Positions 7,231 to 59,614 of a stretch of DNA of 64,000 bases are shown here, one piece after another. Each line of letters opens with the position of its first letter. The first letter of the stretch is position 1. A program made the translations under genes and the position numbers. Origin of the DNA: Escherichia coli (GTDB lineage Bacteria; Pseudomonadota; Gammaproteobacteria; Enterobacterales; Enterobacteriaceae); NCBI RefSeq assembly GCF_050920415.1, contig NZ_CP169309.1; one strand, written 5' to 3'. Below the pieces are notes generated by a model. The model was not told where the DNA came from and made no database searches. It was given only the letters and a program-made list of their open reading frames with translations.

Positions 7231-8993
7231 AAAATCTCCACAATATTGCTGGTATTGGCGGATTCGCCCTGCAGCGGTTCGTTAAACAGTGCGTGCATCG
7301 TTGCCCAGGCCAGATCGGCGTGGCTGGCTTCTTCGCTGCGGCTGGCTTCATAGGTCGGGCGGTTGCCACTGGCGGTGGTGGCGCGACGGATTGCCATAAA
7401 GGACTGCGCTATGTCGGTGTGTCCGGCGTCAAACTCCAGACGGCGGTGGCTGATAATGTCGTAGGCCTTGAGTACCAGGGCGTTTTTAACGTTGGGGTTG
7501 TAGACAAACTCCCGGACGGCAGGAAAAAACGCTTTCACGTTCTCGTAAACCCCGTGACCAACGCCGGTTGAGTCGATACCGATATAGGTCACGTTGTACT
7601 GTTCGGTCAGTTTTTTGATGGCGTCAGCCTGGGCGCGGAAGTCCATTCCGCGCCACTGGTGACGCTCAAGAATGCGGAACTTACCGCCCGGCACGGCTGG
7701 CGGCGCCACCACCACGCATCCGGCGCTGTCGCCGTTCTGCGTACCTTTCGCCGGGTCATATCCGATCCACACTTCGCGCCAGCCAAACGGGCGCAGGGCC
7801 AGTGCATGAAAGTCGGTCCAGACTTCCCAACTGTCCACCATGCACGCCTGCAGCTCGCTGAGCGGGAACACGGACGCGAGATCGTCCACGAACTCGCACA
7901 TCAGCAGGTTCTGGTATTCGTCCGGGCTGTACTCCATGCGCAACTGGTCAAGGTCGAACAGGTTACAGCCGCCGCGCACCGCATCTTCCACGGTGACTAT
8001 CTGGCGGTACTGCCCGTCTGCGCACAGCAGGCCGGGGGCCAGATTGCTGTGGGACAGGTCGATGTCCACCTTATCGGCTTTGTTGCGCCCTCGGTTGAAC
8101 AGCGCACCGGACCAGAACGGATAAGCACTGTGTGTCAGGCTGGATGGCGTGGAAAAATAGGTTTGTCGCCATTTTTTGTGAATAGCCATACCGGAAGCCA
8201 CTTTGCGCAGCTCCTGGAATTTCGGTATCCAGAAATATTCATCCAGATACAGGTTGCCGTGGTAACTCTGGGCCGTGCGGGCATTGGTGCCGAGGAAGTA
8301 AAGCGTGGCCCCGTTAGGAAGCACCATCGGATCGCCTTTCAGCTCCACCTCGACTTCTTTGGCGAAGTCGATGATGTACTGCTTAAAGACGTGGGCCTGT
8401 GCCTTACTGGCGGAAAGGAAAATCTGGTTACGTCCGGTCAGCAGGGCGTCAATCAGGGCTTCACGGGCAAAGTAAAAGGTCGCGCCGATCTGGCGAGACT
8501 TCAGCAGGTTGCGGATGCGATTGGTTTTTCCGGCTTCCCACCAGTGGCGCTGGTAGTTGAACATGGAGGAATGGAAGATTTCTTCCAGCTTCTCAATCTG
8601 TTCATCGGTGAAAACATTCTTTTCCGGCTGACGGCGCGGCCCTTTGTTGCGGTTGGCGACGTTAGGGTTTAAGTCGGCTTCGTTGCCGCCATTGTTAAAC
8701 TTGCCGATCCGCGCGTGGCGCTCCGACTGGCGCGCCAGCAGGTCAATTTCTTTGAAATCTTTCCCTTCTTTGTGCTCCTTCATAATGAGCTGGCAGTAGC
8801 GGGCGGCGGTGGTGAGCTGCATCTGATCCAGCGGCCCATAGTCACCCCACTTGTCGCGTTTTTTCCAGCTGTGAACGGTTGCAACTTTCTCGCCCAGCAT
8901 TTCAGCAATGCGGGCTACGCGGTATCCCTGAAAGTACAGCAGCATGGCCTGCCGACGGGGATCGAGATCTGCGGGTGTCAGTGTGGTGTTCAT
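7227..8993 (-). CDS. terminase large (ATPase) subunit (P2 gpP-like)
   Basis: 588 aa; P2 P-like; downstream of divergent late promoter region. Confidence 0.9.
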   Translation of the reverse strand: MNTTLTPADLDPRRQAMLLYFQGYRVARIAEMLGEKVATVHSWKKRDKWGDYGPLDQMQLTTAARYCQLIMKEHKEGKDFKEIDLLARQSERHARIGKFNNGGNEADLNPNVANRNKGPRRQPEKNVFTDEQIEKLEEIFHSSMFNYQRHWWEAGKTNRIRNLLKSRQIGATFYFAREALIDALLTGRNQIFLSASKAQAHVFKQYIIDFAKEVEVELKGDPMVLPNGATLYFLGTNARTAQSYHGNLYLDEYFWIPKFQELRKVASGMAIHKKWRQTYFSTPSSLTHSAYPFWSGALFNRGRNKADKVDIDLSHSNLAPGLLCADGQYRQIVTVEDAVRGGCNLFDLDQLRMEYSPDEYQNLLMCEFVDDLASVFPLSELQACMVDSWEVWTDFHALALRPFGWREVWIGYDPAKGTQNGDSAGCVVVAPPAVPGGKFRILERHQWRGMDFRAQADAIKKLTEQYNVTYIGIDSTGVGHGVYENVKAFFPAVREFVYNPNVKNALVLKAYDIISHRRLEFDAGHTDIAQSFMAIRRATTASGNRPTYEASRSEEASHADLAWATMHALFNEPLQGESANTSNIVEIF

Positions 8994-9985: not shown

Positions 9986-11044
9986 ATGAAGAAGAATACC
10001 CGTTTTGCTTTTAACGCTTACCTGCAGCAACTGGCGCGTCTGAACGGTGTGGCAGTTGAGGAACTGTCCAGCAAGTTCACCGTAGAGCCGTCTGTGCAGC
10101 AGACGCTGGAAGACCAGATCCAGCAGTCCGCCGCTTTCCTGACGCTGATTAACGTCACGCCAGTGACTGAGCAGTCCGGTCAGCTGCTTGGATTGGGTGT
10201 TGGCAGCACCATTGCCGGAACCACTGACACCACCGCGAAAGAGCGTGAACCTGTCGATCCGACGCTGATGATCGATGTGGAATACAAATGCGAACAGACC
10301 AACTTTGACACGGTGCTGACCTACGCGAAGCTGGACCTGTGGGCGAAGTTTCAGGATTTCCAGGTGCGTATCCGTGACGCCATCGTGAAACGCCAGGCAC
10401 TGGACCGCATCATGATCGGCTTTAACGGCGTGAAGCGTGCGAAAACCTCCAACCGTAGCGAAAACCCGCTGCTGCAGGATGTGAACAAAGGCTGGCTGCA
10501 GAAAATCCGTGAGGATGCACCGGATCACGTCATGGGCAGCACCACCACGGGCGGTGAAACCACACCGGGTGCGGTGAAAGTCGGGAAAGGTGGCGAATAT
10601 GCCAACCTGGACGCCGTGGTGATGGATGCGGTCAATGAGCTTATCGACGTGGTCTACCAGGACGATGACGATCTGGTGGTGATTTGCGGTCGTGAGCTGC
10701 TGTCTGACAAGTATTTCCCGCTGGTCAACAAAGAGCAGGAAAACAGTGAAAAACTGGCTGCCGATATGATCATCAGTCAGAAACGCATGGGTGGCCTGCA
10801 GGCCGTGCGTGCGCCGTTCTTCCCGCCGAATGCGCTGCTGATCACCCGTCTGGATAACCTGTCCATTTACTGGCAGGAAGACACCCGCCGCCGTTCGGTT
10901 ATCGACAACCCGAAACGTGACCGGATTGAAAATTTTGAATCCGTTAACGAAGCCTATGTGGTTGAGGACTACCGCTGCGCCGCACTGGTGGAAAACATCC
11001 AGATTGGCGACTTCAGCGCCGCCGCAGCAGAAACCGGAGCGTAA
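9986..11044 (+). CDS. major capsid protein (P2 gpN-like)
   Basis: 352 aa, P2 N-like. Confidence 0.9.
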   Translation: MKKNTRFAFNAYLQQLARLNGVAVEELSSKFTVEPSVQQTLEDQIQQSAAFLTLINVTPVTEQSGQLLGLGVGSTIAGTTDTTAKEREPVDPTLMIDVEYKCEQTNFDTVLTYAKLDLWAKFQDFQVRIRDAIVKRQALDRIMIGFNGVKRAKTSNRSENPLLQDVNKGWLQKIREDAPDHVMGSTTTGGETTPGAVKVGKGGEYANLDAVVMDAVNELIDVVYQDDDDLVVICGRELLSDKYFPLVNKEQENSEKLAADMIISQKRMGGLQAVRAPFFPPNALLITRLDNLSIYWQEDTRRRSVIDNPKRDRIENFESVNEAYVVEDYRCAALVENIQIGDFSAAAAETGA

Positions 11045-21269: not shown

Positions 21270-22442
21270 ATGGCTCAGGATTACCACCACGGGGTGCGCG
21301 TTGTTGAAGTCAACGAAGGCACCCGATCCATTACCACGGTGAGCACCGCCATCGTGGGCATGGTCTGCACGGGCGATGATGCCGATGCAAAAATGTTTCC
21401 TCTTAACAAACCTGTGCTGATCACTGATGTGCTGACTGCCAGCGGTAAAGCGGGTGAGTCCGGCACGCTGGCCCGTTCGCTGGATGCCATCGCTGACCAG
21501 GCAAAACCCGTGACCGTTGTTGTGCGTGTGCCGCAGGGTGAAACGGAAGAAGAAACCACGACCAATATCATCGGCGCAGTGACTGCTGAAGGTAAAAAAA
21601 CAGGCATGAAAGCTCTGTTATCTGCCCAGTCACAGCTCGGCGTTAAACCGCGCATTCTCGGCGTGCCAGGTCACGATAACAAAGCCGTTGCGACTGAGTT
21701 GCTGAGCGTGGCGCAAAGCCTGCGTGGGTTTGCTTACCTGTCAGCGTATGGCTGCAAGACGGTACAGGAGGCGATCACTTACCGTGAAAACTTCAGCCAG
21801 CGCGAAGGAATGCTGATCTGGCCCGACTTTACTGGCTGGGACACGGTGCTGAATGCCGAAGCAACGGCATATGCCACCGCCCGTGCACTTGGTCTGCGTG
21901 CCAAAATTGATGAGCAGACCGGGTGGCACAAAAGCCTGTCCAACGTGGGCGTGAACGGTGTCACCGGAATTTCTGCAGATGTGTTCTGGGATCTGCAGGA
22001 CCCGGCAACCGATGCAGGTCTGCTGAACCAGAACGACGTCACCACGCTTGTGCGTAAAGACGGTTTCCGCTTCTGGGGTTCCCGCTGTCTGAGCGATGAT
22101 CCGCTTTTTGCCTTCGAAAACTACACCCGCACGGCGCAGGTGCTGACGGACACAATGGCAGAAGCACACATGTGGGCGGTGGATAAACCGCTTAACCCGT
22201 CGCTGGCCCGCGACATTATCGAAGGTATCCGCGCCAAAATACGCAGCCTGGTCAGTCAGGGCTATCTCATTGGTGGTGATTGCTGGCTGGATGAGTCGGT
22301 GAACGACAAAGACACGCTGAAAGCCGGAAAACTCACCATCGACTATGACTACACGCCAGTGCCGCCACTTGAAAATCTGATGCTGCGCCAGCGCATCACC
22401 GATCAGTACCTGGTGAATTTCGCCAGCCAGGTCAGCGCGTAA
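21270..22442 (+). CDS. contractile tail sheath protein (P2 gpFI-like)
   Basis: 390 aa, P2 FI-like. Confidence 0.9.
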
Positions 22443-23450: not shown

Positions 23451-26400
23451 ATGAGTGATAACAACCTGCGGCTGCAGGTCATTCTTAATGCGGTTGACAA
23501 ACTCACCCGCCCATTCCGTGTTGCACAGGCCAGTTCGAAAGAGCTGGCTGGCGCAATTCAGAATACCCGAAACAGCCTCAAAGAACTGAATAAGCAGGCT
23601 GGCAGAATTGATGAATTTCGCAAGACGCGCTCGCAACTAGCCATAACAGCCAACAACCTGAACGCAGCCCGCGAAGAGGCGGCAAAACTCGCCACACAAT
23701 TTGCTGCCACTAACAGGCCAACCGCCGCGCAGGCAAAGTTATTCAGTCAGGCCAAAACACGAGTACAGGAACTTCAGCAGACCTATAACGGCTTGTTGGG
23801 GGCGGTCCAGAGACAACGTCAGGCACTTAAAGAATCAGGGATTGATACCAGACAACTCAGTAGTGCCCAGCGAGAACTTAAGAAAAATGCTGAAGAAACA
23901 AGGCAGGCACTGGAGGGCCAGCAAAAAGCACTTAAACGTCTGGGTGAACAACAGTCACGGATGAACGCTGCCAGAGAACAATACTCAAGACGGCTTGAAG
24001 TGCGCGATCGCATCGCAGGAGCCGGAGCCACTACCACGGCTGCAGGGCTGGCAATGGGTGCGCCAGTGATGGCAGCAGTAAAAAGCTATACCAGCATGGA
24101 AGATGCCATGAAAGGTGTGGCAAAGCAGGTCAATGGTCTGCGTGATGATAATGGCAACCGCACTGCGCGTTTTTACGAAATGCAGGATGCCATCAAGGCT
24201 GCCAGCGAACAGTTGCCGATGGAAAACGGTGCTGTGGACTTTGCCGCACTGGTTGAAGGTGGTGCGCGCATGAACGTCGCAAATCCTGACGACAGCTGGG
24301 AAGACCAGAAACGTGACCTGCTGGCCTTCGCCAGCACGGCAGCAAAGGCGGCAACAGCCTTTGAGCTGCCAGCGGATGAACTGTCAGAAAGTCTGGGGAA
24401 AATCGCCCAGCTCTACAAAATCCCTACCCGCAATATTGAACAGCTCGGTGATGCGCTGAACTATCTGGATGATAACGCCATGTCGAAAGGGTCAGACATC
24501 ATTGATGTCATGCAACGCCTGGGCGGTGTGGCAGATCGTCTGGATTATCGTAAAGCGGCGGCGCTGGGTTCCACCTTCCTGACACTGGGCGCTGCGCCGG
24601 AGGTTGCTGCCAGTGCAGCAAACGCGATGGTGCGTGAATTGTCCATTGCCACCATGCAAAGTAAGAGTTTCTTTGAAGGGATGAATCTGCTGAAACTCAA
24701 TCCTGAAGTGATTGAAAAGCAGATGACGAAGGATGCGATGGGAACTATCCAGCGTGTGCTGGAGAAGGTGAACGCACTGCCGCAGGACAAGCGTCTGTCT
24801 GCCATGACCATGTTGTTTGGTAAAGAGTTTGGTGATGATGCAGCGAAACTGGCAAACAACCTTCCGGAACTGCAGCGCCAGCTAAAACTGACAGCGGGCA
24901 ATGATGCGCTCGGTTCCATGCAGAAAGAATCCGACATCAACAAAGACTCACTTTCCGCTCAGTGGTTGCTGGTCAAAACCGGAGCGCAGAACACCTTCAG
25001 CAGCCTGGGCGAAACGCTGCGCCAGCCGCTGATGGATATTCTGTACACGGTGAAAAGCATCACGGGGGCGTTGCGCCGCTGGGTGGAAGCTAACCCGGAA
25101 CTGACAGGCACACTGATGAAAGTAGCGGCTGTTGTGGCTGCGGTTACCGTAGGCCTCGGCACCTTAGCGGTGGCGCTGGCTGCAGTGCTGGGGCCGCTGG
25201 CAGTCATCCGTCTGGGATTCTCTGTGCTGGGTATCAAAACGTTACCTTCCGTTACGGCAGCAGTAACACGAACCAGCAGCGCGTTGTCCTGGTTAGCTGG
25301 CGCTCCACTGGCACTGCTGCGACGCGGGCTTGCTTCATCGGGCAACGCAGCGGGTTTACTTACTGCGCCGTTGTCGTCTTTGCGCCGCACCGCATCACTG
25401 ACGGGGAATGTCCTGAAAACTGTAGCAGGTGTGCCGGTTGCACTGTTGCGGTCTGGATTATCCGGTTTACGTGCGGTTGCTGTGATGTTTATGAATCCAC
25501 TGGCAGCACTACGCGGTGGACTGGCTGCCGCAGGCGCGGTGCTGCGTGTGCTGGCATCCGATCCGCTGGCGATGCTGCGCGTTGCCCTGTATGCCGTATC
25601 TGGTCTGTTAGGTGCTCTGCTCAGTCCGATAGGTCTTGTGGTTACTGCACTGGCGGGCGTGGCGCTGGTTGTCTGGAAATACTGGCAACCCATCACCGCA
25701 TTTCTCGGTGGCGTGGTGGAAGGATTCAAAGCGGCGGCAGGTCCCATCAGTGCTGCATTCGAACCGCTTAAGCCCGTGTTCCAGTGGATTGGCGACAAAG
25801 TACAGGCGTTGTGGGGCTGGTTTACTGATCTGCTGACGCCTGTTAAGTCGACCTCTGCCGAACTGCAGAGCGCAGCGGCAATGGGGCGACGATTCGGGGA
25901 GGCACTGGCGGAAGGGCTGAATATGGTCATGCATCCGTTGGACTCCCTGAAATCCGGCGTTTCCTGGTTGCTGGAGAAACTCGGTATTGTCAGTAAAGAG
26001 GCTGCAAAGGCGAAACTGCCGGAAAGCGTGACGCGTCAGCAACCTGCGACGGTGAATGCAGACGGTAAAGTGATGATGCCATCGGGTGGTTTTCCGTCAT
26101 GGGGATATGGCTTTGCGGGGATGTATGACAGCGGCGGCTATATCCCGCGCGGGCAGTTCGGCATTGTCGGTGAAAACGGGCCTGAAATTGTCAACGGTCC
26201 GGCAAACGTGACCAGTCGGAGAAATACAGCTGCACTGGCTGCCGTTGTTGCCGGAATGATGGGCGTTGCTGCCGCGCCTGCAGAGCTTCCGCCGTTACAT
26301 CCTTTGGCACTTCCCGCGAAAGGCGGCGAAGCGATGGTGAGTCGTGCAGCCACTGTGCCGCCCGCTCAACGGATTGAGGCACCGACGCAGATCATCATCC

Positions 26401-26528
26401 AGACGCAGCCAGGACAAAGTGCGCAGGATATTGCGCGGGAGGTGGCACGCCAGCTTGATGAACGTGAACGCAGGCTGAAGGCAAAAGCCAGGAGTAACTA
26501 CAGCGATCAGGGGGGATACGACGCATGA
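23451..26528 (+). CDS. tail tape measure protein (P2 gpT-like), 1025 aa
   Basis: Long alpha-helical-type protein with central hydrophobic Ala/Leu-rich block; position between E and U. Confidence 0.85.
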   Translation: MSDNNLRLQVILNAVDKLTRPFRVAQASSKELAGAIQNTRNSLKELNKQAGRIDEFRKTRSQLAITANNLNAAREEAAKLATQFAATNRPTAAQAKLFSQAKTRVQELQQTYNGLLGAVQRQRQALKESGIDTRQLSSAQRELKKNAEETRQALEGQQKALKRLGEQQSRMNAAREQYSRRLEVRDRIAGAGATTTAAGLAMGAPVMAAVKSYTSMEDAMKGVAKQVNGLRDDNGNRTARFYEMQDAIKAASEQLPMENGAVDFAALVEGGARMNVANPDDSWEDQKRDLLAFASTAAKAATAFELPADELSESLGKIAQLYKIPTRNIEQLGDALNYLDDNAMSKGSDIIDVMQRLGGVADRLDYRKAAALGSTFLTLGAAPEVAASAANAMVRELSIATMQSKSFFEGMNLLKLNPEVIEKQMTKDAMGTIQRVLEKVNALPQDKRLSAMTMLFGKEFGDDAAKLANNLPELQRQLKLTAGNDALGSMQKESDINKDSLSAQWLLVKTGAQNTFSSLGETLRQPLMDILYTVKSITGALRRWVEANPELTGTLMKVAAVVAAVTVGLGTLAVALAAVLGPLAVIRLGFSVLGIKTLPSVTAAVTRTSSALSWLAGAPLALLRRGLASSGNAAGLLTAPLSSLRRTASLTGNVLKTVAGVPVALLRSGLSGLRAVAVMFMNPLAALRGGLAAAGAVLRVLASDPLAMLRVALYAVSGLLGALLSPIGLVVTALAGVALVVWKYWQPITAFLGGVVEGFKAAAGPISAAFEPLKPVFQWIGDKVQALWGWFTDLLTPVKSTSAELQSAAAMGRRFGEALAEGLNMVMHPLDSLKSGVSWLLEKLGIVSKEAAKAKLPESVTRQQPATVNADGKVMMPSGGFPSWGYGFAGMYDSGGYIPRGQFGIVGENGPEIVNGPANVTSRRNTAALAAVVAGMMGVAAAPAELPPLHPLALPAKGGEAMVSRAATVPPAQRIEAPTQIIIQTQPGQSAQDIAREVARQLDERERRLKAKARSNYSDQGGYDA

Positions 26529-27010
26529 TGATGGTGCTGGGATTGTACGTGTTTATGCTGCGCACTGTGCCGTATCAGGAACTGCAGTATCAACGCAGCT
26601 GGCGACATGCGGCAAACAGCCGGGTCAACCGACGTCCGTCCACGCAGTTTCTGGGACCGGACAACGACATGCTGACGCTTTCTGGTGTTCTTATGCCGGA
26701 GATAACAGGCGGCAGGCTGTCGTTGCTGGTACTGGAGCAGATGGCAGAACAGGGGAAAGCATGGCCCCTGATTGAAGGCAGCGGCACGATTTACGGCATG
26801 TATGTGATTGAGGGACTGAATCAGACTAAAACGGAGTTTTTCCGCGACGGTATGCCGCGCCGGATTGAGTTCACCCTGTCGCTCAAACGGGTGGATGAAT
26901 CCCTGTCCGATATGTTCGGTGATCTCAGTGCGCAACTGAATAATCTGCAGGACACGGCAACGTCTGCCTTAAGCGATATCAGTAAAACGGTGGGAGGGCT
27001 GCTGTCGTGA
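26525..27010 (+). CDS. tail protein U (P2 gpU-like)
   Basis: 161 aa, overlaps T stop. Confidence 0.8.
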   Translation: MMMVLGLYVFMLRTVPYQELQYQRSWRHAANSRVNRRPSTQFLGPDNDMLTLSGVLMPEITGGRLSLLVLEQMAEQGKAWPLIEGSGTIYGMYVIEGLNQTKTEFFRDGMPRRIEFTLSLKRVDESLSDMFGDLSAQLNNLQDTATSALSDISKTVGGLLS

Positions 27011-28107
27011 ATTTCAGCTCTGAACTGCTTAACAAAGGCAACAAAACTCCCGCATTCAGCATCAGTATTGAGGGCAGGGATATCACCACTGTGCTGGATA
27101 ACCGCCTGATGAGTTTGACGCTGACGGACAATCGGGGCTTTGAAGCAGACCAGCTTGATCTGGAGCTGGACGACGCCGACGGAAAAATCGTGCTGCCGCG
27201 CCGTGGTGCGGTTATTACGCTGGCGCTGGGCTGGAAGGGGCAGCCGCTTTTCCCGAAAGGGGCATTCACGGTGGACGAGATTGAACACACTGGCGCACCG
27301 GACCGCCTGACTATCCGGGCGCGAAGTGCTGATTTTCGTGAAACGCTGAATACCCGCCGTGAAAAGTCGTGGCACAAGACCACCGTTGGGGAAGTGGTGA
27401 AGGAAATAGCTGCACGGCACAAACTGAAGATGGCATTGGGTAAAGACCTGTCAGATAAACCCGTGGAACATATAGACCAGACCAATGAGAGTGACGGCAG
27501 TTTTCTGATGCGACTGGCGCGCCAGTACGGTGCTATTGCGTCGGTGAAAAATGGCAATCTGTTATTCATCCGGCAGGGACAGGGCAAAAGCGCCAGCGGT
27601 AAACCACTGCCGGTGATCACTATCACGCGTAAGGACGGCGACAGTCACCGCTTTACCCTGGCAGATCGCGGAGCCTATACGGGCGTCATTGCCAGCTGGT
27701 TGCATACCCGCGAACCCGCGAAGAAAGAAAGCACCACGGTGAAGCGTAAGCGCAGAACTAAGAAGCAGAAGAAAGAGCCGGAAGCGAAGCAGGGCGATTA
27801 TCTGGTGGGGACGGATGAAAACGTGCTGGTACTTAATCGCACTTATGCCAACCGGAGCAACGCCGAACGAGCGGCGAAAATGCAGTGGGAACGCCTGCAA
27901 CGCGGTGTTGCGTCATTCTCGCTACAACTGGCGGAAGGTCGGGCAGATCTCTACACGGAAATGCCTGTGAAGGTCAGTGGCTTTAAACAGCCAATAGATG
28001 ATGCGGAATGGACCATTACGACTCTGACACATACCGTCAGCCCGGATAACGGTTTTACGACCAGTATTGAACTTGAAGTGAAAATTGGTGATCTTGAAAT
28101 GGAATAA
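27007..28107 (+). CDS. tail protein D (P2 late control gene D-like)
   Basis: 366 aa, P2 D-like. Confidence 0.85.
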   Translation: MNFSSELLNKGNKTPAFSISIEGRDITTVLDNRLMSLTLTDNRGFEADQLDLELDDADGKIVLPRRGAVITLALGWKGQPLFPKGAFTVDEIEHTGAPDRLTIRARSADFRETLNTRREKSWHKTTVGEVVKEIAARHKLKMALGKDLSDKPVEHIDQTNESDGSFLMRLARQYGAIASVKNGNLLFIRQGQGKSASGKPLPVITITRKDGDSHRFTLADRGAYTGVIASWLHTREPAKKESTTVKRKRRTKKQKKEPEAKQGDYLVGTDENVLVLNRTYANRSNAERAAKMQWERLQRGVASFSLQLAEGRADLYTEMPVKVSGFKQPIDDAEWTITTLTHTVSPDNGFTTSIELEVKIGDLEME

Positions 28108-29026: not shown

Positions 29027-29389
29027 TGGTGGAGCTGGCGGGAGTTGAACCCGCGTCCGAAATTCCTACATCCTCGGTACTACATGCTTAGTCAGTCTTT
29101 ACATTCGCTTGCCAGCTGCGGACGGACACGCCACTAACAAACTAGCCTGATTAAGTTTTAACGCTTCAACCCCAGGCAGGGCTTCCACGCGATCTCTTTT
29201 GGGTTTGACCTCTCTTGATCCCCGTCCTAAGAGCGGAGGCTAGGGAGAGAGGGCTCTAAGCAGGTTATTAAGCTGCTAAAGCGTAGTTTTCGTCGTTTGC
29301 GACTATTTTTTGCGGCTTTTTACGAGGCCAACCGCCCCTCGGCATGCACCTTGGGTTTCGCAAATCCCGTCGAATCCAGAATCAGCCCC
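29027..29389 (-). ncRNA. ssrA: tmRNA (SsrA), 363 nt
   Basis: Reverse complement matches E. coli tmRNA from GGGGCUGAUUCUGG 5' end to GCCAGCUCCACCA 3' end, including tag-encoding region. Confidence 0.95.
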
Positions 29390-47126: not shown

Positions 47127-47153
47127 AGTGTTGCCTTTTTGTTATCAATAAAA

Positions 47154-47178
47154 AAGGCCCCCCGGTTTGGGAGGCCTT
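47154..47178 (-). terminator. pheA attenuator terminator
   Basis: On minus strand aaggcctccc-aaac-cggggggcctttttt between pheL and pheA. Confidence 0.6.
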
Positions 47179-47223
47179 ATTGTTCGTCTTCGCATTCTGT
47201 TTCACACGACGAAACGCCTCCCA

Positions 47224-47271
47224 TTCAGGGGAAGGTAAAAAAGAATGCGAAGAAAAACGGTGTGTGTTTCA
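47224..47271 (-). CDS. pheL: pheA leader peptide
   Basis: Minus strand ATG AAA CAC ACA CCG TTT TTC TTC GCA TTC TTT TTT ACC TTC CCC TGA = MKHTPFFFAFFFTFP. Confidence 0.85.
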
Positions 47272-47326
47272 TGTTTGTTTCCTTAAGTGACTTTAGTACA
47301 GTACCCGTACTGTTTTCACGCTGTCA

Positions 47327-47352
47327 ACAAAAAACGCGCCCGAAGGCGCGTT
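47327..47352 (-). terminator. raiA terminator
   Basis: aacgcgcc-ttcg-ggcgcgtt hairpin followed by tttttgttg on minus strand. Confidence 0.5.
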
Positions 47353-47375
47353 GGCGATACACTCAATATAAAGGA

Positions 47376-47771
<396 letters not shown>

Positions 47772-47963
47772 TCAAAATGTGTGATGGAAATCTCATAATT
47801 TTGTCACTTTTTGTCAACGAATCTTTTTTGTGAGAAATCGCAGGAAGAGGTGTTTTTTTACTTGAGGAATATCTCAAAGCGAGCCATATTTGATGAGATC
47901 GGTAGTGACTAAATCGCTTCAGTTACACAACTAACAGAATAAAAAAACGGTAGCTCAAGGCTG

Positions 47964-48688
47964 TAATGCCAGTCAGTTAAGCAACTGACTGGCTCTTTTT
48001 TGGGGCTGTGGGGTATTTCCAGGGCCTCTCCTTTACCACTCTCGGGAAGGCCCTTTCCCTTCTTGTCGGTAATTTCACAAGTTGTCCCATACTTGCAAGA
48101 TCGCGCATCAGCTCCGGTATACGTCCCGGTGAAGCGCATGGCGTCCGTCATCGACGTCAGCAGATGGCTGGTCAGTTCCATCTGGCAGACCATTTTGACC
48201 TGCGGGTAGAGCGCCGGGGTCCCGGTATGTGTCTGGCGAGGGAAGGCTGCATCGTTCTCTGGTGTATCCGGTGTGCGCCAGAACACACCATCGATGGCCA
48301 GCAGGGTCAGGCCGCACCAGTGCGGATGCGGCGTGGCGTTATGCCAGAGCTGCGCTGTTTTCGTGAACACGCGGCGGACAGCCTCACTTCCCAGGCGCTG
48401 GCGGGCCTGAATAACGGCACTGGGGGCAACGAAGGGGCGATTGCCCGGCAGCATGATGTCCAGGCGATTCACAATCTGGTGAAGAGGTTCTTTACGCTCA
48501 AGCGCCATGCCAACAATACACCAGACCATCATTTCGAGGGGAAGACGGCGCTTGCGTAGCGTTACAGTACCTGATTCGGCAAGGCAACGAGAGATGAGTT
48601 CGGGGTCGAGGTAATCCCCCAGAGAAGTCAGTGGGTTACGCAGAGAATCGTAACGGGATACCAAATCAAGGGCCTGTCCAATGAGCAT
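47964..48688 (-). pseudogene. truncated IS4 transposase
   Basis: N-terminal ~195 aa look like IS4 transposase (LLAIDGVFWRTPDTPEN region), then frame runs into unrelated sequence. Confidence 0.55.
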
Positions 48689-48773
48689 AAAAAAAATCCG
48701 GAAACGAGTGAGCGTTTCCGGATTCTTACACAGGCACTGGATCGGTCAACTGATCCTTAACTGATCGGCATTA
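47964..48773 (-). mobile_element. internally deleted IS4 copy (~810 bp) flanked by 12-bp target-site duplication
   Basis: Ends taatgccagtcagttaag / rc taatgccgatcagttaag are inverted repeats; agctcaaggctg present directly outside both ends (47952-47963, 48775-48786); truncated transposase inside. Confidence 0.65.
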
Positions 48774-48809
48774 CAGCTCAAGGCTGCCGTTTTGTGTTTC
48801 AGGTTTCTG

Positions 48810-49547
48810 TTATGTATTGCTGCTGTTTGCGGCGATGATTTTCGCTACTTTTTCAGCTTGCGCATTCATCTGCATCTGACGGTATGCATTTTCCATCAGC
48901 GGCAGCGCATCACGCGTAGCCTGGGTATCCGGATAGTCGCGCAACATGTCTTCTACGCGGTTAACGACAGCAACCCATGCACCACGTTCTGTATAGTACT
49001 CGGCAACGGAGTATTCATATTTCGCCAGACGATCTTTCAGGAATACCAGACGTTTGGTGGCATCGGTGGTGTACTGACTGTTCGGATAGCCGCGCACCAG
49101 TTTGGAAAAGTCACTAAACGCAGCTCGTGCATGTTGAGGATCGCGATCGCTACGGTCAACGCCAAAGAACCCTTGCAGCGCACTGTCATCCAGCGCCATA
49201 TTGGTCAGGCCACGCATGTACATGACATAATCGATATTCGGATGGGTCGGGTTAAGGCGAATAAAACGATCGATGGCAGCCTGTGCTAACGGCAAATCGG
49301 CGTTTTTATAGTAGGCGTAGATGAGATCCAGCTGCACCTGCTGCGAATACGGACCAAACGGATAGCGATTATCTAACGCTTCCAGTTGCGTTATTGCCTG
49401 TCTCCAGTTACCGTCCTGCAGCTTTTGTTGTGCAGTCGCGTAAATTTCATTTGGCGGATTATCAGGTACTTCTTCCTTTGACCCCGAGCAACCCGCCAAA
49501 AACAGGCTTAGTGTGGCGGCTGCCACCAGATATTTCATGCGCGTCAT
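48810..49547 (-). CDS. bamD: outer membrane protein assembly factor BamD
   Basis: 245 aa TPR lipoprotein (lipobox LAGC). Confidence 0.9.
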
Positions 49548-49681
49548 GACGTTTTGACTTTCCTCAAAATGTAATACGGGAGATTCTCTGTTCCTGCTCC
49601 CGGTTAAGACCAGCTACAATAGCACACTATATTAAACGGCAAAGCCGTAAAACCCCAACGATAAACGAAGAAGCAGTATAT

Positions 49682-50662
49682 ATGGCACAACGAGTACAGC
49701 TCACTGCAACGGTGTCCGAAAACCAACTCGGTCAACGCTTAGATCAGGCTTTGGCCGAAATGTTCCCGGATTATTCACGTTCGCGAATAAAAGAATGGAT
49801 CCTCGACCAGCGCGTGCTGGTTAACGGCAAAGTTTGCGATAAGCCGAAAGAAAAAGTATTGGGTGGCGAGCAGGTGGCCATCAACGCTGAGATTGAAGAA
49901 GAAGCGCGTTTTGAACCGCAGGATATCCCGCTGGATATCGTCTATGAAGATGAAGATATCATCGTCATTAATAAACCACGCGACCTGGTGGTACATCCTG
50001 GCGCGGGTAACCCGGATGGCACGGTACTGAATGCGTTGCTTCATTATTATCCGCCCATTGCCGATGTACCGCGTGCGGGCATCGTCCATCGTCTGGATAA
50101 AGACACCACCGGCCTGATGGTTGTGGCAAAAACCGTTCCGGCTCAGACGCGTTTAGTCGAATCTTTGCAACGGCGTGAAATTACTCGTGAGTATGAAGCG
50201 GTGGCAATTGGTCATATGACCGCTGGCGGTACAGTAGATGAACCAATCAGCCGCCACCCGACCAAACGTACTCACATGGCGGTGCATCCGATGGGTAAAC
50301 CGGCGGTCACTCACTATCGCATCATGGAACACTTCCGTGTGCACACGCGTCTGCGGTTGCGTCTGGAAACCGGACGTACGCACCAGATCCGCGTGCATAT
50401 GGCCCATATCACTCATCCGCTGGTGGGCGATCCGGTTTATGGCGGCCGTCCGCGTCCGCCAAAAGGTGCTTCGGAAGCGTTTATCTCCACGCTGCGTAAG
50501 TTTGACCGCCAGGCGCTTCATGCAACCATGCTGCGTCTTTATCACCCGATCTCCGGCATCGAAATGGAATGGCATGCGCCTATTCCACAAGATATGGTGG
50601 AGCTGATTGAGGTGATGCGCGCCGATTTCGAAGAGCATAAGGATGAAGTGGACTGGTTATGA
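49682..50662 (+). CDS. rluD: 23S rRNA pseudouridine synthase RluD
   Basis: 326 aa, S4 domain then RluA-family catalytic core (HRLDKDTTG). Confidence 0.95.
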   Translation: MAQRVQLTATVSENQLGQRLDQALAEMFPDYSRSRIKEWILDQRVLVNGKVCDKPKEKVLGGEQVAINAEIEEEARFEPQDIPLDIVYEDEDIIVINKPRDLVVHPGAGNPDGTVLNALLHYYPPIADVPRAGIVHRLDKDTTGLMVVAKTVPAQTRLVESLQRREITREYEAVAIGHMTAGGTVDEPISRHPTKRTHMAVHPMGKPAVTHYRIMEHFRVHTRLRLRLETGRTHQIRVHMAHITHPLVGDPVYGGRPRPPKGASEAFISTLRKFDRQALHATMLRLYHPISGIEMEWHAPIPQDMVELIEVMRADFEEHKDEVDWL

Positions 50663-51390
50663 GTAAGCTGATTGTCCCGCAGTGGCCGCTGCCAAAAGGT
50701 GTTGCGGCCTGTAGCTCTACCCGTATCGGCGGCGTGAGCTTGCCGCCGTATGACTCGCTCAACCTCGGTGCCCATTGTGGCGATAACCCGGATTACGTCG
50801 AGGAAAATCGTAAGCGACTTTTTGCTGCGGGCAATTTGCCTTCAAAACCGGTCTGGCTTGAGCAGGTACACGGCAAAGATGTGCTTAAGCTTACTGGCGG
50901 ACCTTATGCCTCAAAACGAGCGGATGCCTCTTATAGCAATACGCCCGGCACGGTTTGCGCCGTGATGACGGCTGACTGCCTCCCTGTGCTGTTTTGCAAT
51001 CGAGCGGGAACGGAAGTCGCCGCCGCTCATGCTGGCTGGCGTGGACTGTGCGCAGGCGTGCTGGAAGAGACGGTTTCCTGTTTTGCTGATAATCCCGAAA
51101 ACATTCTCGCCTGGTTAGGGCCGGCAATTGGTCCACGCGCGTTTGAAGTGGGAGCGGAGGTTCGCGAGGCGTTTATGGCAGTAGACGCCAAAGCGAGTGC
51201 AGCTTTCATTCAGCATGGAGATAAATATCTGGCGGATATTTATCAGCTTGCCCGGCAGCGTCTGGCGAATGTTGGTGTTGAGCAAATTTTCGGCGGTGAC
51301 CGCTGTACATACACAGAAAATGAGACATTCTTCTCTTATCGTCGCGACAAGACCACTGGTCGTATGGCAAGTTTCATTTGGCTGATATAA
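50659..51390 (+). CDS. yfiH: YfiH/PgeF (DUF152 laccase-like purine nucleoside enzyme)
   Basis: 243 aa, overlaps rluD stop. Confidence 0.9.
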   Translation: MSKLIVPQWPLPKGVAACSSTRIGGVSLPPYDSLNLGAHCGDNPDYVEENRKRLFAAGNLPSKPVWLEQVHGKDVLKLTGGPYASKRADASYSNTPGTVCAVMTADCLPVLFCNRAGTEVAAAHAGWRGLCAGVLEETVSCFADNPENILAWLGPAIGPRAFEVGAEVREAFMAVDAKASAAFIQHGDKYLADIYQLARQRLANVGVEQIFGGDRCTYTENETFFSYRRDKTTGRMASFIWLI

Positions 51391-51451
51391 CCTAAAGAAT
51401 CAAGACGATCCGGTACGCGTGATTTTCTTTTCACATTAATCTGGTCAATAA

Positions 51452-51482
51452 CCTTGAATAATTGAGGGATGACCTCATTTAA
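51452..51482 (+). promoter_or_regulatory. sigma32 heat-shock promoter of clpB
   Basis: CCTTGAA -35 and GACCTCATTTA -10-like element ~40 bp upstream of clpB. Confidence 0.5.
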
Positions 51483-51519
51483 TCTCCAGTAGCAACTTTG
51501 ATCCGTTATGGGAGGAGTT

Positions 51520-54093
51520 ATGCGTCTGGATCGTCTTACTAATAAATTCCAGCTTGCTCTTGCCGATGCCCAATCACTTGCACTCGGGCACGACAACCAA
51601 TTCATCGAACCACTTCATTTAATGAGCGCCCTGCTGAATCAGGAAGGGGGTTCGGTTAGTCCTTTATTAACATCCGCCGGCATCAATGCTGGTCAGTTGC
51701 GCACAGATATCAATCAGGCATTAAATCGTTTACCGCAGGTTGAAGGCACTGGTGGCGATGTCCAGCCCTCACAGGATCTGGTGCGCGTTCTTAATCTTTG
51801 CGACAAGCTGGCGCAAAAACGTGGTGATAACTTTATCTCGTCAGAACTGTTCGTTCTGGCGGCACTTGAGTCTCGCGGCACGCTGGCCGACATCCTGAAA
51901 GCAGCAGGGGCGACCACCGCCAACATTACTCAAGCGATTGAACAAATGCGTGGAGGTGAAAGCGTGAACGATCAAGGAGCTGAAGACCAACGTCAGGCTT
52001 TGAAAAAATACACTATCGACCTCACCGAACGAGCCGAACAAGGCAAACTCGATCCGGTGATTGGCCGTGATGAAGAAATTCGCCGTACCATTCAGGTACT
52101 GCAACGTCGTACTAAAAATAACCCGGTGCTGATTGGTGAACCAGGCGTTGGTAAAACAGCCATCGTTGAAGGTCTGGCTCAGCGTATTATCAATGGCGAA
52201 GTACCGGAAGGGCTGAAAGGCCGCCGCGTACTGGCGCTGGATATGGGCGCGCTGGTGGCCGGGGCGAAATATCGCGGTGAGTTTGAAGAACGTTTAAAAG
52301 GCGTGCTTAACGATCTCGCCAAACAGGAAGGCAACGTCATCCTGTTTATCGACGAATTACATACCATGGTCGGTGCGGGTAAAGCCGATGGCGCAATGGA
52401 TGCCGGCAACATGCTGAAACCGGCGCTGGCGCGTGGTGAATTGCACTGCGTAGGTGCCACGACGCTTGACGAATATCGCCAGTACATCGAAAAAGATGCT
52501 GCGCTGGAACGTCGTTTCCAGAAAGTGTTTGTTGCCGAGCCTTCTGTTGAAGACACCATTGCTATTCTGCGTGGCCTGAAAGAACGTTACGAACTGCACC
52601 ACCATGTGCAAATTACTGACCCGGCAATTGTTGCAGCGGCGACGTTGTCTCATCGCTACATTGCTGACCGTCAGTTGCCGGATAAAGCCATCGACCTGAT
52701 CGATGAAGCAGCATCCAGCATTCGTATGCAGATTGACTCAAAACCAGAAGAACTCGACCGACTCGATCGTCGTATCATCCAGCTCAAACTGGAACAACAG
52801 GCGTTAATGAAAGAGTCTGATGAAGCCAGTAAAAAACGCCTGGATATGCTCAACGAAGAACTGAGCGACAAAGAACGTCAGTATTCCGAGTTAGAAGAAG
52901 AGTGGAAAGCTGAGAAAGCGTCGCTTTCTGGTACGCAGACCATTAAAGCGGAACTGGAACAGGCGAAAATCGCCATTGAACAGGCTCGCCGTGTGGGTGA
53001 TCTGGCGCGGATGTCTGAACTGCAATATGGCAAAATTCCAGAACTGGAAAAGCAACTGGAAGCCGCAACGCAGCTCGAAGGCAAAACTATGCGTCTCTTG
53101 CGTAATAAAGTGACCGACGCCGAAATTGCTGAAGTGCTGGCGCGTTGGACGGGGATTCCGGTTTCTCGCATGATGGAAAGCGAGCGCGAAAAACTGCTGC
53201 GTATGGAGCAAGAACTGCACCATCGCGTTATTGGTCAGAACGAAGCGGTTGATGCGGTATCTAACGCTATTCGTCGTAGCCGTGCGGGGCTTGCGGATCC
53301 AAATCGCCCGATTGGTTCATTCCTGTTCCTTGGCCCAACTGGTGTGGGTAAAACTGAGCTTTGTAAGGCGCTGGCGAACTTTATGTTTGATAGCGACGAG
53401 GCGATGGTCCGTATCGATATGTCCGAGTTTATGGAGAAACACTCGGTGTCTCGTCTGGTTGGTGCGCCTCCGGGATATGTCGGTTATGAAGAAGGTGGCT
53501 ACCTGACCGAAGCGGTGCGTCGTCGTCCGTATTCCGTCATCCTGCTGGATGAAGTGGAAAAAGCGCATCCGGATGTCTTCAACATTCTGTTGCAGGTACT
53601 GGATGATGGACGTCTGACTGACGGGCAGGGGAGAACGGTCGACTTCCGTAATACGGTTGTCATTATGACCTCTAACCTAGGTTCCGATTTGATTCAGGAA
53701 CGCTTCGGTGAACTGGATTATGCGCACATGAAAGAGCTGGTACTCGGTGTGGTAAGCCATAACTTCCGTCCGGAATTCATTAACCGTATCGATGAAGTGG
53801 TGGTCTTCCATCCGCTGGGTGAACAGCACATTGCGTCGATTGCGCAGATTCAGTTGAAACGTCTGTACAAACGTCTGGAAGAACGTGGTTATGAAATCCA
53901 CATTTCTGACGAGGCGCTGAAACTGCTGAGCGAGAACGGTTACGATCCGGTCTATGGTGCACGTCCTCTGAAACGTGCTATCCAGCAGCAGATCGAAAAC
54001 CCGCTGGCACAGCAAATACTGTCTGGTGAATTGGTTCCGGGTAAAGTTATTCGCCTGGAAGTTAATGAAGACAGGATTGTCGCCGTCCAGTAA
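51520..54093 (+). CDS. clpB: disaggregase chaperone ClpB
   Basis: 857 aa from ATG 51520 ([11 protein letters not shown]); two AAA+ modules. Confidence 0.95.
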
Positions 54094-54535: not shown

Positions 54536-56070
<1,535 letters not shown>

Positions 56071-56242
56071 CCTTAAAGAACTGTTCTTTGCAGTGCTCAC
56101 ACAGATTGTCTGATGAAAAGTGAATAGCAAGGCGTTTACGCGTTGGGAGTGAGGCTGAAGAGAATAAGGCCGTTCGCTTTCTGTTAATGAAAGCTCACCC
56201 TACACGAAAATATCACGCAGCGCGTGATAAGCAATTTTCGTG

Positions 56243-56318
56243 TCCCCTTCGTCTAGAGGCCCAGGACACCGCCCTTTCACGGCGGTAACAGGGGTTCGAA
56301 TCCCCTAGGGGACGCCAC
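56243..56318 (+). tRNA. gltW: tRNA-Glu (UUC) in 16S-23S spacer
   Basis: gtccccttcgtctagaggcccaggacaccgccctttcacggcggtaacaggggttcgaatcccctaggggacgcca. Confidence 0.95.
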
Positions 56319-56501
56319 TTGCTGGTTTGTGAGTGAAAGTCGCCGACCTTGATATCGTTAAAGATGACTTACGAGTCATGTTTAAGATATTTGCTCTTTA
56401 AAAATCTGGATCAAGCTGAAAATTGAAACACTGAACAACGAAAGTTGTTCGTGAGTCTCTCAAATTTTCGCAATCAGAAGTGAAACATCTTCGGGTTGTG
56501 A

Positions 56502-59401
<2,900 letters not shown>

Positions 59402-59494
59402 ACAACGCCGAAGATGTTTTGGCGGATTGAGAGAAGATTTTCAGCCTGATACAGATTAAATCAGAACGCAGAAGCGGTCTGATGAAACAGAATT

Positions 59495-59614
59495 TGCCTG
59501 GCGGCCTTAGCGCGGTGGTCCCACCTGACCCCATGCCGAACTCAGAAGTGAAACGCCGTAGCGCCGATGGTAGTGTGGGGTCTCCCCATGCGAGAGTAGG
59601 GAACTGCCAGGCAT
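59495..59614 (+). rRNA. rrf: 5S ribosomal RNA
   Basis: TGCCTGGCGGCC...GGAACTGCCAGGCAT, 120 nt. Confidence 0.95.

What the first reader, a model, noticed from the sequence alone, without database searches (positions are those of the whole stretch)
47952..48786. Internally deleted IS4 copy with 12-bp target duplication between raiA and bamD
An ~810 bp element has IS4-like terminal inverted repeats and a perfect 12-bp direct repeat (agctcaaggctg) at both flanks. Its transposase frame is intact for ~195 codons and then breaks, consistent with an internal deletion. It lies 24 bp downstream of bamD and upstream of the raiA promoter, so it may influence raiA expression.
Basis: seen in the sequence. 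Interest (0 to 1): 0.4.

Follow-up and report, generated by a model that had tools for sequence, protein, structure and literature searches.

The report
Decayed IS4 copy in bamD terminator
This is a dead, twice-deleted copy of the common E. coli insertion sequence IS4, sitting in the transcription terminator of bamD at a spot where IS4 lands repeatedly; it is an ordinary, already annotated mobile-element relic.

Summary
Window 47964-48773 is an 810-bp IS4 derivative, 98-99% identical to IS4, with 16/18-matching terminal inverted repeats. It is flanked by a 13-bp target duplication (12 bp perfect, as reported) and lies between raiA and bamD.

- It carries two internal deletions, not one. One is 336 bp and in frame; the other is 281 bp and shifts the frame. 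Each lies between short direct repeats of IS4.
- The remaining ORF keeps the N-terminal IS4 domain and only D133 of the catalytic residues. D209 and the Y-R-E314-K motif are gone, so the element cannot transpose itself.

The target is the bamD terminator hairpin (AAAACGGCAGC-TCAAG-GCTGCCGTTTT), which the insertion splits.

Among 5,426 complete E. coli genomes:
- 5,007 have the empty site.
- 336 carry IS4 there in this orientation.
- 70 carry IS4 there in the opposite orientation.
- 18 carry this exact double-deleted relic, always at this locus. In 17 of them it is the only IS4 sequence in the record.

The relic ORF is drifting. One carrier has an early frameshift, and most substitutions change the amino acid.

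An effect on raiA is untested. It is probably small, because IS4 brings its own inward-facing terminator hairpins.

Verdict: a fossil IS, already annotated in RefSeq as a frameshifted IS4 transposase. Low interest.

The parts
47376..47717 (-). raiA (ribosome-associated translation inhibitor), the downstream neighbour. Its ATG is 246 nt from the IS end.
   Evidence: ORF. Annotated raiA at the homologous position in MFDS1022581, N96 and others.
47941..47950 (.). Left target arm AAAAAAACGG: the outer half of the split bamD terminator stem, with the T-tract of the terminator on the minus strand.
   Evidence: Sequence. Empty-site alleles in ATCC 11775, K-12, O157:H7 and O104:H4 read AAAAAAACGG-CAGCTCAAGG(G)CTG-CCGTTTT.
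47951..47963 (.). Left copy of the 13-bp target-site duplication (TAGCTCAAGGCTG). The first base has changed from C to T.
47964..48773 (-). IS4 relic, 810 bp, transposase direction on the minus strand.
   Evidence: 98-99% identity to the 1426-bp IS4 in three blocks. 100% identical copies in MFDS1022581 and N96, annotated there as 'IS4 family transposase, frameshifted'.
47964..47981 (.). Terminal inverted repeat at the transposase-distal end (TAATGCCAGTCAGTTAAG).
   Evidence: (I1). Fits the IS4-subgroup end signature -AATR--------WTW given in PMC2266710.
47968..48001 (+). Inward-facing terminator-like hairpin of IS4: an 11-bp perfect stem (47968-47993) followed by TCTTTTTT.
   Evidence: I3; -22.2 kcal/mol, z = -3.1.
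47977..48108 (-). Stranded C-terminal transposase fragment (IS4 Tnp residues 400-442), out of frame with the N-terminal part.
   Evidence: ORF. Matches the end of the full-length protein.
48126..48137 (.). Junction of the 281-bp deletion, at the 12-bp imperfect direct repeat CCGG(T/G)GAAGCGC. It joins IS4 nt 174 to 455 and shifts the frame after codon 298.
   Evidence: D11, spacing 281.
48155..48168 (.). Junction of the 336-bp in-frame deletion, at the 14-bp perfect direct repeat CGTCAGCAGATGGC. It joins IS4 nt 486 to 823 and removes codons 179-290, including D209.
   Evidence: D7, spacing 336; the longest perfect direct repeat reported in IS4.
47909..48688 (-). Residual 259-codon ORF. Codons 1-186 are IS4-derived (48131-48688). 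The rest is out-of-frame read-through that runs 55 nt past the IS end into flanking DNA.
   Evidence: Pfam finds Nterm_IS4 only (E 1.9e-33); DDE_Tnp_1 is lost, whereas full-length IS4 Tnp has both.
48684..48727 (-). Inward-facing terminator-like hairpin of IS4: a 15-bp stem (48727-48692) followed by T8, just upstream of the transposase ATG. It is the likely surrogate terminator for bamD transcripts.
   Evidence: I2; stable in both MFE and centroid structures.
48756..48773 (.). Terminal inverted repeat at the transposase-proximal end (CTTAACTGATCGGCATTA).
48774..48786 (.). Right copy of the 13-bp target-site duplication (CAGCTCAAGGCTG).
48787..48793 (.). Right target arm CCGTTTT: the other outer half of the split bamD terminator stem.
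   Evidence: The intact hairpin in the empty site folds at -13.7 kcal/mol, z = -5.6.
48810..49547 (-). bamD, the upstream neighbour whose terminator was the insertion target.
   Evidence: ORF. Annotated bamD in all compared genomes.

Best explanation
A full-length IS4 (1426 bp) transposed into the intrinsic terminator hairpin just downstream of bamD. It duplicated 13 bp, comprising the upper stem and loop (CAGC-TCAAG-GCTG). In one E. coli lineage that resident copy then decayed in place. Two deletions arose between short direct repeats inside IS4: 336 bp between two perfect 14-mers, and 281 bp between two 12-mers that match 11/12. These are typical of replication slippage or other RecA-independent deletion.

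The deletions removed two of the three catalytic residues (D209 and E314) and the YREK motif, and broke the reading frame. The 810-bp remnant keeps both inverted repeats but encodes no transposase, so it is an immobile fossil inherited vertically.

Functionally it is most likely near-neutral. It destroys the native bamD terminator but supplies IS4's own strong hairpin plus T8 about 60 nt further on. It sits well upstream of the raiA promoter region.

Shown here: identity, ends, duplication, breakpoints, loss of catalytic residues, population distribution, and drift of the ORF. Inferred: the order and mechanism of the deletions, termination at the IS4 hairpin, and neutrality for raiA and bamD.
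For: 1. Identity and anatomy.
- Three colinear blocks of IS4 at 98-99% identity.
- Inverted repeats and target duplication confirmed.
- Pfam Nterm_IS4 is retained and DDE_Tnp_1 is lost.
- In full-length IS4 the catalytic positions are D133, D209 and Y307-R310-E314-K321. Only D133 is retained.

2. In-situ origin.
- Full-length IS4 occupies exactly the same position, in the same orientation, with the same 13-bp duplication in other strains such as FDAARGOS_1260.
- An intermediate with only the 336-bp deletion sits at the same site in E2348/69 and SC477.

3. Deletion mechanism.
- Both junctions fall on direct repeats of IS4 whose spacing equals the deletion size, 281 and 336 bp.

4. Immobility.
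- The double-deleted form is found in 18 of 5,426 genomes, once per genome, always joined to the raiA-side flank.
- In 17 of the 18 it is the only IS4 place in the record.
- In RMDEC465, which has 31 IS4 places, it still occurs only here.

5. No selection on the ORF.
- 2017-02-2CC has a frameshift giving a stop after 41 codons.
- Window vs EC42405 shows 5 nonsynonymous to 1 synonymous change in codons 1-178. Window vs R32_14_1F shows 3 to 2.

6. Target.
- The empty site is a hairpin terminator present in 5,007 genomes.
- Other IS4 sites (tdk|adhE, zapB|rraA, hdhA|malI and others) share the A-tract, GC-palindrome, T-tract shape with 12-14 bp duplications.
- This agrees with the strong specificity in target arms reported for the IS4 subgroup (PMC2266710).
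Against: - The order of events is not proven. The E2348/69-type relic with the 336-bp deletion differs from the window relic at 20 of 808 shared positions. Full-length copies at the site differ at only 6-11. The 336-bp deletion may therefore have arisen more than once rather than being a shared intermediate.
- The same 281-bp deletion is present in IS4 relics at a different locus, tdk|adhE. That could reflect recurrent slippage, but also gene conversion between copies.
- No expression data exist here, so neutrality for bamD and raiA is an inference.
- The relic keeps both inverted repeats, so mobilisation in trans is not physically excluded.
Confidence: 0.92

Rival explanations
1. The 810-bp element is a non-autonomous (MITE-like) IS4 derivative. 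On this view it was already deleted when it transposed into this site, mobilised in trans by transposase from a full-length IS4.
For: Both terminal inverted repeats are intact and a clean target duplication is present. The same 281-bp deletion occurs in IS4 copies at a second locus, tdk|adhE, in several hundred genomes. That could in principle reflect movement of a deleted element.
Against: - The double-deleted form occurs only at raiA|bamD, once per genome, in 18 genomes.
- 17 of those 18 have no other IS4 to supply transposase.
- The one carrier with 31 IS4 places has not amplified it.
- Full-length and singly deleted IS4 occupy the identical site with the identical duplication.
- The tdk|adhE copies lack the 336-bp deletion and differ from the window relic at 15-18 of 808 positions.
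- Transposases of this family are generally cis-acting (general knowledge, not tested here).
Confidence: 0.03
2. The relic has been co-opted. Either the truncated N-terminal protein (DNA-binding domain without catalysis) is retained as an inhibitor of IS4 transposition, or the insertion is retained because it rewires bamD termination or raiA expression.
For: - In the window, MFDS1022581, N96 and EC42405 the ORF stays open for 259 codons and keeps the complete Nterm_IS4 domain.
- A promoter-like site (TTGACC-16-AAGAAT) lies upstream of it.
- The insertion replaces the bamD terminator with a different one and lies upstream of raiA.
Against: - The ORF is frameshifted after about 24 codons in 2017-02-2CC and truncated differently in R32_14_1F.
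- Substitutions among carriers are mostly nonsynonymous, 5:1 and 3:2.
- Most carriers have no IS4 left to inhibit.
- The promoter-like site reads straight into the 15-bp hairpin plus T8.
- IS4 sits at this site in both orientations and in full or deleted form across about 400 genomes. That looks like target preference rather than selection for one regulatory outcome.
Confidence: 0.04
3. The structure is an assembly or sequencing artefact, for example a collapsed or chimeric IS4 copy.
For: IS elements are frequent sites of misassembly in short-read assemblies (general knowledge).
Against: The identical two junctions and flanks are present in 18 independently sequenced complete genomes from different hosts and countries. 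The junctions fall on direct repeats, as expected for real deletions.
Confidence: 0.01

Closest known systems
IS4 of Escherichia coli (IS4 family, IS4 subgroup; transposase InsG), 1426 bp
   Same: 98-99% nucleotide identity over all retained segments, the same 18-bp terminal inverted repeats, a duplication within the family's 10-13 bp range, and the same N-terminal transposase domain. The target is a palindromic terminator-like site, as at other IS4 loci.
   Different: It is 810 bp instead of 1426. It lacks 617 bp in two blocks and has a 1-bp longer T-run. It also lacks D209, E314 and the YREK motif and is frameshifted, so it is a defective derivative and not a functional IS.
IS4 relics at raiA|bamD in E. 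coli E2348/69 and SC477 (1089 bp)
   Same: Same locus, same orientation, and the same 336-bp deletion at the 14-bp repeat.
   Different: They lack the 281-bp deletion and carry a different 1-bp deletion. They have the other left-end variant (TAATGCCGATCAG). They differ from the window relic at 16-20 of 808 shared positions.
IS4 relic between tdk and adhE (1145 bp), present in several hundred E. coli genomes
   Same: It has the same 281-bp deletion at the same repeat. It is likewise inserted in a terminator hairpin with AAAACGG / CCGTTT arms and a 12-bp duplication.
   Different: It is at a different locus, lacks the 336-bp deletion, and differs at 15-18 of 808 positions.
MITEs and other non-autonomous IS deletion derivatives
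   Same: It has terminal inverted repeats and a target duplication without a functional transposase gene.
   Different: There is no sign of amplification or movement. It occurs once per genome and always at one locus.

Membership tests
IS4 (IS4 family, IS4 subgroup) | Terminal inverted repeats with the subgroup end signature (-AATR--------WTW-) | tested here: met
   The ends are TAATGCCAGTCAGTTAAG and TAATGCCGATCAGTTAAG, matching 16/18. The signature is taken from PMC2266710 Table 1.
IS4 (IS4 family, IS4 subgroup) | Target-site duplication of about one helical turn (10-13 bp) | tested here: met
   The duplication is 13 bp, 12/13 identical in the window and 13/13 in N96 and 2017-02-2CC.
IS4 (IS4 family, IS4 subgroup) | Nucleotide identity to reference IS4 copies | tested here: met
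   97.7-99.2% identity over IS4 nt 1-174, 444-486 and 809-1426 against a 1426-bp copy annotated 'IS4-like element IS4 family transposase'.
IS4 (IS4 family, IS4 subgroup) | Single ORF transposase with the N-terminal IS4 domain | tested here: met
   Pfam Nterm_IS4 (PF13006), E 1.9e-33, residues 18-109.
IS4 (IS4 family, IS4 subgroup) | Intact DDE triad and Y(2)R(3)E(6)K motif (functional element) | tested here: not met
   DDE_Tnp_1 is not detected. D209 lies in the 336-bp deletion. Y307, R310, E314 and K321 lie in the 281-bp deletion. It is therefore a defective derivative of IS4 and not an active member.
IS4 (IS4 family, IS4 subgroup) | Typical length 1400-1650 bp (IS4 itself 1426 bp) | tested here: not met
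   810 bp.
MITE / mobilisable non-autonomous element | Multiple dispersed copies, each with its own target duplication | tested here: not met
   The deletion junctions occur once per genome, in 18 genomes, always contiguous with the raiA flank.
MITE / mobilisable non-autonomous element | Mobilisation in trans by a cognate transposase | not testable with these tools
   This needs a transposition assay. Indirectly, 17 of 18 carriers have no other IS4 place.
Rho-independent terminator (the insertion target) | GC-rich hairpin followed by a T-run downstream of the gene | tested here: met
   On the bamD strand, the empty-site RNA ...AAAACGGCAGCCUUGAGCUGCCGUUUUUUU folds at -13.7 kcal/mol, z = -5.6. 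Function as a terminator was not measured.

The most novel reading that the evidence does not exclude
The locus, rather than the relic, is the interesting part. IS4 appears to choose its targets by reading the two arms of A-tract/T-tract terminator hairpins (AAAACGG ... CCGTTTT at both bamD and adhE) and to cut at fixed positions relative to those arms. On this view the duplication length (12, 13 or 14 bp) follows the length of the intervening stem-loop instead of a fixed stagger. Independent insertions would then recur at exactly the same phosphodiester bonds in both orientations. Resident copies would also decay along a predictable path, through the same two repeat-mediated deletions at different loci.
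Probability: 0.4. Interest if true: 0.3.

Novelty: already known. Interest (0 to 1): 0.12.

Why it matters
It matters little for biology at large. IS4 is one of the first insertion sequences described, and this relic is already annotated as a frameshifted IS4 transposase pseudogene in RefSeq genomes.

It has some practical value:
- It is a lineage marker. The exact double deletion is present in 18 of 5,426 complete genomes.
- It shows that the bamD terminator is a recurrent IS4 landing site. About 7.5% of complete genomes are occupied, in both orientations. Annotators and people studying bamD or raiA expression across strains should know this.
- It illustrates how short internal direct repeats steer the decay of an IS.

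If the relic did change raiA or bamD expression it would be a natural regulatory variant affecting ribosome hibernation or outer-membrane assembly. Nothing seen here points that way.

Tried and rejected
- GG/GGG loop allele as proof of independent insertions: rejected as decisive. I first read the 13-bp versus 14-bp duplications this way. EC42405 carries GG in the left copy and GGG in the right, so homopolymer slippage or flank recombination can convert one to the other. Only the two orientations are used as firm evidence for at least two insertions.
- Literature on the classical IS4 target consensus and on IS4 at raiA/yfiA: nothing specific found. Found were general statements on IS4-subgroup ends, duplication length and arm specificity (PMC2266710), and a Shigella sonnei report of inversions flanked by IS4-family copies in a region listing raiA to ssrA (PMC12795559). 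The 'AAA-N20-TTT' consensus I recall from 1980s papers could not be verified and is not used as evidence.
- Published raiA transcription start: not found. Only a broad RNA-polymerase ChIP peak over the intergenic region turned up (PMC4447067). The consensus scanner found no sigma-70-like promoter on the raiA strand between raiA and the IS. My reading of a CRP-like site (TGAGATTTCCATCACA) and a TATGCT -10 about 30-110 nt upstream of the ATG is by eye only.
- Source genome: not identified. The window is 100% identical to MFDS1022581 only over 47327-51774, and 99.35% identical to N96 over 28959-64000. The source strain is apparently not in the complete-genome collection.
- Rfam: no RNA family found within the element.

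Full report
**1. What is in the sequence**

The region 47700-49100 contains two minus-strand genes, raiA (47376-47717) and bamD (48810-49547). Their identities are confirmed by RefSeq annotation of homologous loci. Between them lies an 810-bp element, 47964-48773.

- Its ends are TAATGCCAGTCAGTTAAG and, reverse-complemented, TAATGCCGATCAGTTAAG, matching 16/18.
- One base further out the repeat continues as T versus C. The sister strains N96 and 2017-02-2CC have C in both copies.
- The original duplication was therefore 13 bp (CAGCTCAAGGCTG), and the window's left copy has since acquired a C-to-T change.

**2. Identity**

A megablast of the element against 5,426 complete E. coli genomes hits IS4 in 2,683 of them. 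Against a 1426-bp IS4 annotated 'IS4-like element IS4 family transposase', the element aligns in three colinear blocks at 97.7-99.2% identity: IS4 nt 1-174, 444-486 and 809-1426. No other IS4 fragment is present in the 64-kb window.

The ends, the duplication length and the transposase motifs match the published definition of the IS4 subgroup: ends -AATR--------WTW-, direct repeats of 10-13 bp, and a D..D..E plus Y(2)R(3)E(6)K motif (PMC2266710).

**3. The deletions**

There are two, not one.

- The 281-bp deletion joins the 12-mers CCGGTGAAGCGC and CCGGGGAAGCGC. Its junction is at window 48126-48137.
- The 336-bp deletion joins two perfect 14-mers, CGTCAGCAGATGGC. Its junction is at window 48155-48168.
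- Both repeat pairs are found in intact IS4 with exactly those spacings. The 14-mer is the longest perfect direct repeat reported in the element (D7 and D11).

Reading the transposase from its ATG at 48688 on the minus strand:

- Codons 1-178 are colinear with IS4 transposase.
- The 336-bp deletion removes codons 179-290 in frame.
- Eight more codons (S291-F298) follow.
- The 281-bp deletion then shifts the frame.

In the full protein the catalytic positions are D133, D209 and Y307-R310-E314-K321. Only D133 survives. Pfam agrees: the residual 259-codon ORF has Nterm_IS4 (E 1.9e-33) but no DDE_Tnp_1, whereas the full-length protein has both. The C-terminal 43 residues persist as a separate out-of-frame ORF (47977-48108). 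The element cannot make a transposase.

**4. The target**

Empty sites in ATCC 11775, K-12, O157:H7 and O104:H4 read AAAAAAACGG-CAGCTCAAGG(G)CTG-CCGTTTT, with a GG or GGG loop allele. On the bamD strand this is a GC-rich hairpin followed by a U-run, 23 nt after the stop codon. That makes it the bamD intrinsic terminator (-13.7 kcal/mol, z = -5.6). IS4 duplicated the upper stem and loop and separated the two outer stem halves, so the native terminator is destroyed.

**5. Population picture (5,426 complete genomes)**

| State of the raiA\|bamD site | Genomes |
|---|---|
| Reconstructed empty site | 5,007 |
| raiA flank joined to this IS4 end (same orientation) | 336 |
| raiA flank joined to the other IS4 end (opposite orientation) | 70 |
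| Both deletion junctions together | 18 |

- Two opposite-orientation examples have IS4 at exactly the same bonds, with 13- or 14-bp duplications.
- At least one genome has an unrelated IS5-family element nearby instead.
- IS4 has therefore entered this hairpin at least twice independently, and about 7.5% of genomes are occupied.
- All 18 double-deletion copies occur once per genome and are contiguous with the raiA flank.
- In 17 of those 18 the relic is the only IS4 place in the record.
- In RMDEC465, which has 31 IS4 places, the relic form is still unique to this locus.

**6. Relatives of the relic**

- At the same locus, E2348/69 and SC477 carry a 1089-bp IS4 with only the 336-bp deletion.
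- At another locus, between tdk and adhE, several hundred genomes carry a 1145-bp IS4 with only the 281-bp deletion.
- The window relic differs from full-length copies at raiA|bamD at 6-11 of 808 shared positions.
- It differs from the E2348/69-type relic at 16-20 positions and from the tdk|adhE relics at 15-18.

The simplest reading is that the same repeat-mediated deletions have happened more than once. Gene conversion between copies is not excluded.

**7. Is the relic under selection?**

The evidence says no.

- Among carriers, 2017-02-2CC has a 1-bp deletion giving a stop after 41 codons.
- R32_14_1F ends differently.
- Substitutions in codons 1-178 are 5 nonsynonymous to 1 synonymous (window vs EC42405) and 3 to 2 (window vs R32_14_1F).

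This is what a drifting pseudogene looks like. It argues against a retained inhibitor protein.

**8. Consequences for the neighbours (inference)**

IS4 carries terminator-like hairpins facing inward at both ends.

- A 15-bp stem plus T8 lies at 48727-48684 on the minus strand, just upstream of the transposase ATG.
- An 11-bp stem plus TCTTTTTT lies at 47968-48001 on the plus strand.

bamD transcripts that pass the broken terminator meet the first of these about 60 nt later, so bamD probably still terminates efficiently. The only promoter-like match in the element (TTGACC-16-AAGAAT, 48749-48722) reads directly into that hairpin.

The IS end is 246 nt upstream of the raiA ATG. By eye the likely raiA promoter elements lie within about 110 nt of the ATG. 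I could not find a published start site in the searchable literature. An effect on raiA is therefore possible but unsupported, and it needs the experiment described under next steps.

**9. Target preference more generally**

Six further IS4 sites sampled from other genomes all show an A-rich left arm, a GC-rich palindrome that becomes the 12-14 bp duplication, and a T-rich right arm. They are zapB|rraA, treF|yhjB, tdk|adhE in both orientations, hdhA|malI, and one inside an IS66 tnpA. The tdk|adhE arms (AAAACGG / CCGTTT) are the same as at bamD. [quoted passage not shown]

The 14-bp duplications slightly exceed the published 10-13 bp range. However, the hybrid GG/GGG duplication in EC42405 shows that the G-run can change after insertion, so this point is weak.

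**10. Verdict**

The object is a decayed, immobile IS4 copy in a preferred IS4 target, already annotated as a pseudogene in public genomes. It is ordinary. The modest points of interest are the recurrent use of the bamD terminator as a landing site and the repeat-guided, recurrent deletions.

Noticed in passing
window 1-28900 (e.g. 7227-8993, 9986-11044, 21270-22442, 23451-26528, 27007-28107): A P2-like prophage fills the first ~29 kb of the window and abuts ssrA (tmRNA, 29027-29389, minus strand). PHROG matches include large terminase, major head protein, tail sheath, tape measure, tail protein D and a replication nickase. Its integration boundaries were not mapped.
   Followed up: partly
window 47327 (just downstream of the raiA terminator hairpin 47333-47352): MFDS1022581 is 100% identical to the window from 47327 to 51774. 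It diverges completely to the left, where it has the end of a different P2-like prophage (gpD-like, ogr, hok, com, DNA methyltransferase) instead of pheL-pheA. EC42405 also has a partial DNA methyltransferase gene next to raiA. The raiA 3' flank therefore seems to be another integration or rearrangement point in relic-carrying strains.
   Followed up: no
L004, L006, L022, L025 (tdk|adhE loci of other E. coli): This is a second recurrent IS4 site in the adhE terminator hairpin (AAAAACGG-CCCCAGAAGGGG-CCGTTT), occupied in both orientations. In several hundred genomes it holds a relic carrying the same 281-bp deletion as the window element.
   Followed up: partly
L026 (EC42405), target duplication flanking the relic: The left copy of the duplication has GG and the right copy GGG (CAGCTCAAGGCTG vs CAGCTCAAGGGCTG). 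The loop G-run therefore changes after insertion, or flanks are exchanged by recombination between occupied alleles.
   Followed up: no
L015 (LC-1302-2020), raiA|bamD: A full-length IS4 at the same site has only a 12-bp duplication (CAGCTCAAGGGC). The left junction lacks the TG seen elsewhere. This is either a separate insertion with a different stagger or a 2-bp loss.
   Followed up: no
L016 (TUM14664), raiA|bamD intergenic region: An IS5-family element (ISKpn26-like) is inserted in the same intergenic region while the bamD terminator hairpin is left intact. The spacer tolerates other IS insertions too.
   Followed up: no
window 48689-48696: The window, MFDS1022581, N96 and R32_14_1F have an 8-base A/T run between the IS4 hairpin and the transposase ATG. 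Full-length IS4 copies and two other relic carriers have 7. This is a homopolymer length polymorphism in the putative terminator tail.
   Followed up: no
window 47148-47273, 51401-51539, 54536-59612: Ordinary landmarks confirm the chromosomal context: the Phe leader upstream of pheA, the RyfD sRNA upstream of clpB, and a complete rRNA operon (16S, tRNA-Glu, 23S, 5S).
   Followed up: yes
literature: PMC12795559 (Shigella sonnei): Lineage-specific ~20-45 kb inversions in S. sonnei are reported as flanked by IS4-family transposases, in a region listed from raiA to ssrA and the adjacent prophage. An IS4-family copy near raiA may therefore also drive rearrangements there. This was not checked at sequence level.
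   Followed up: no
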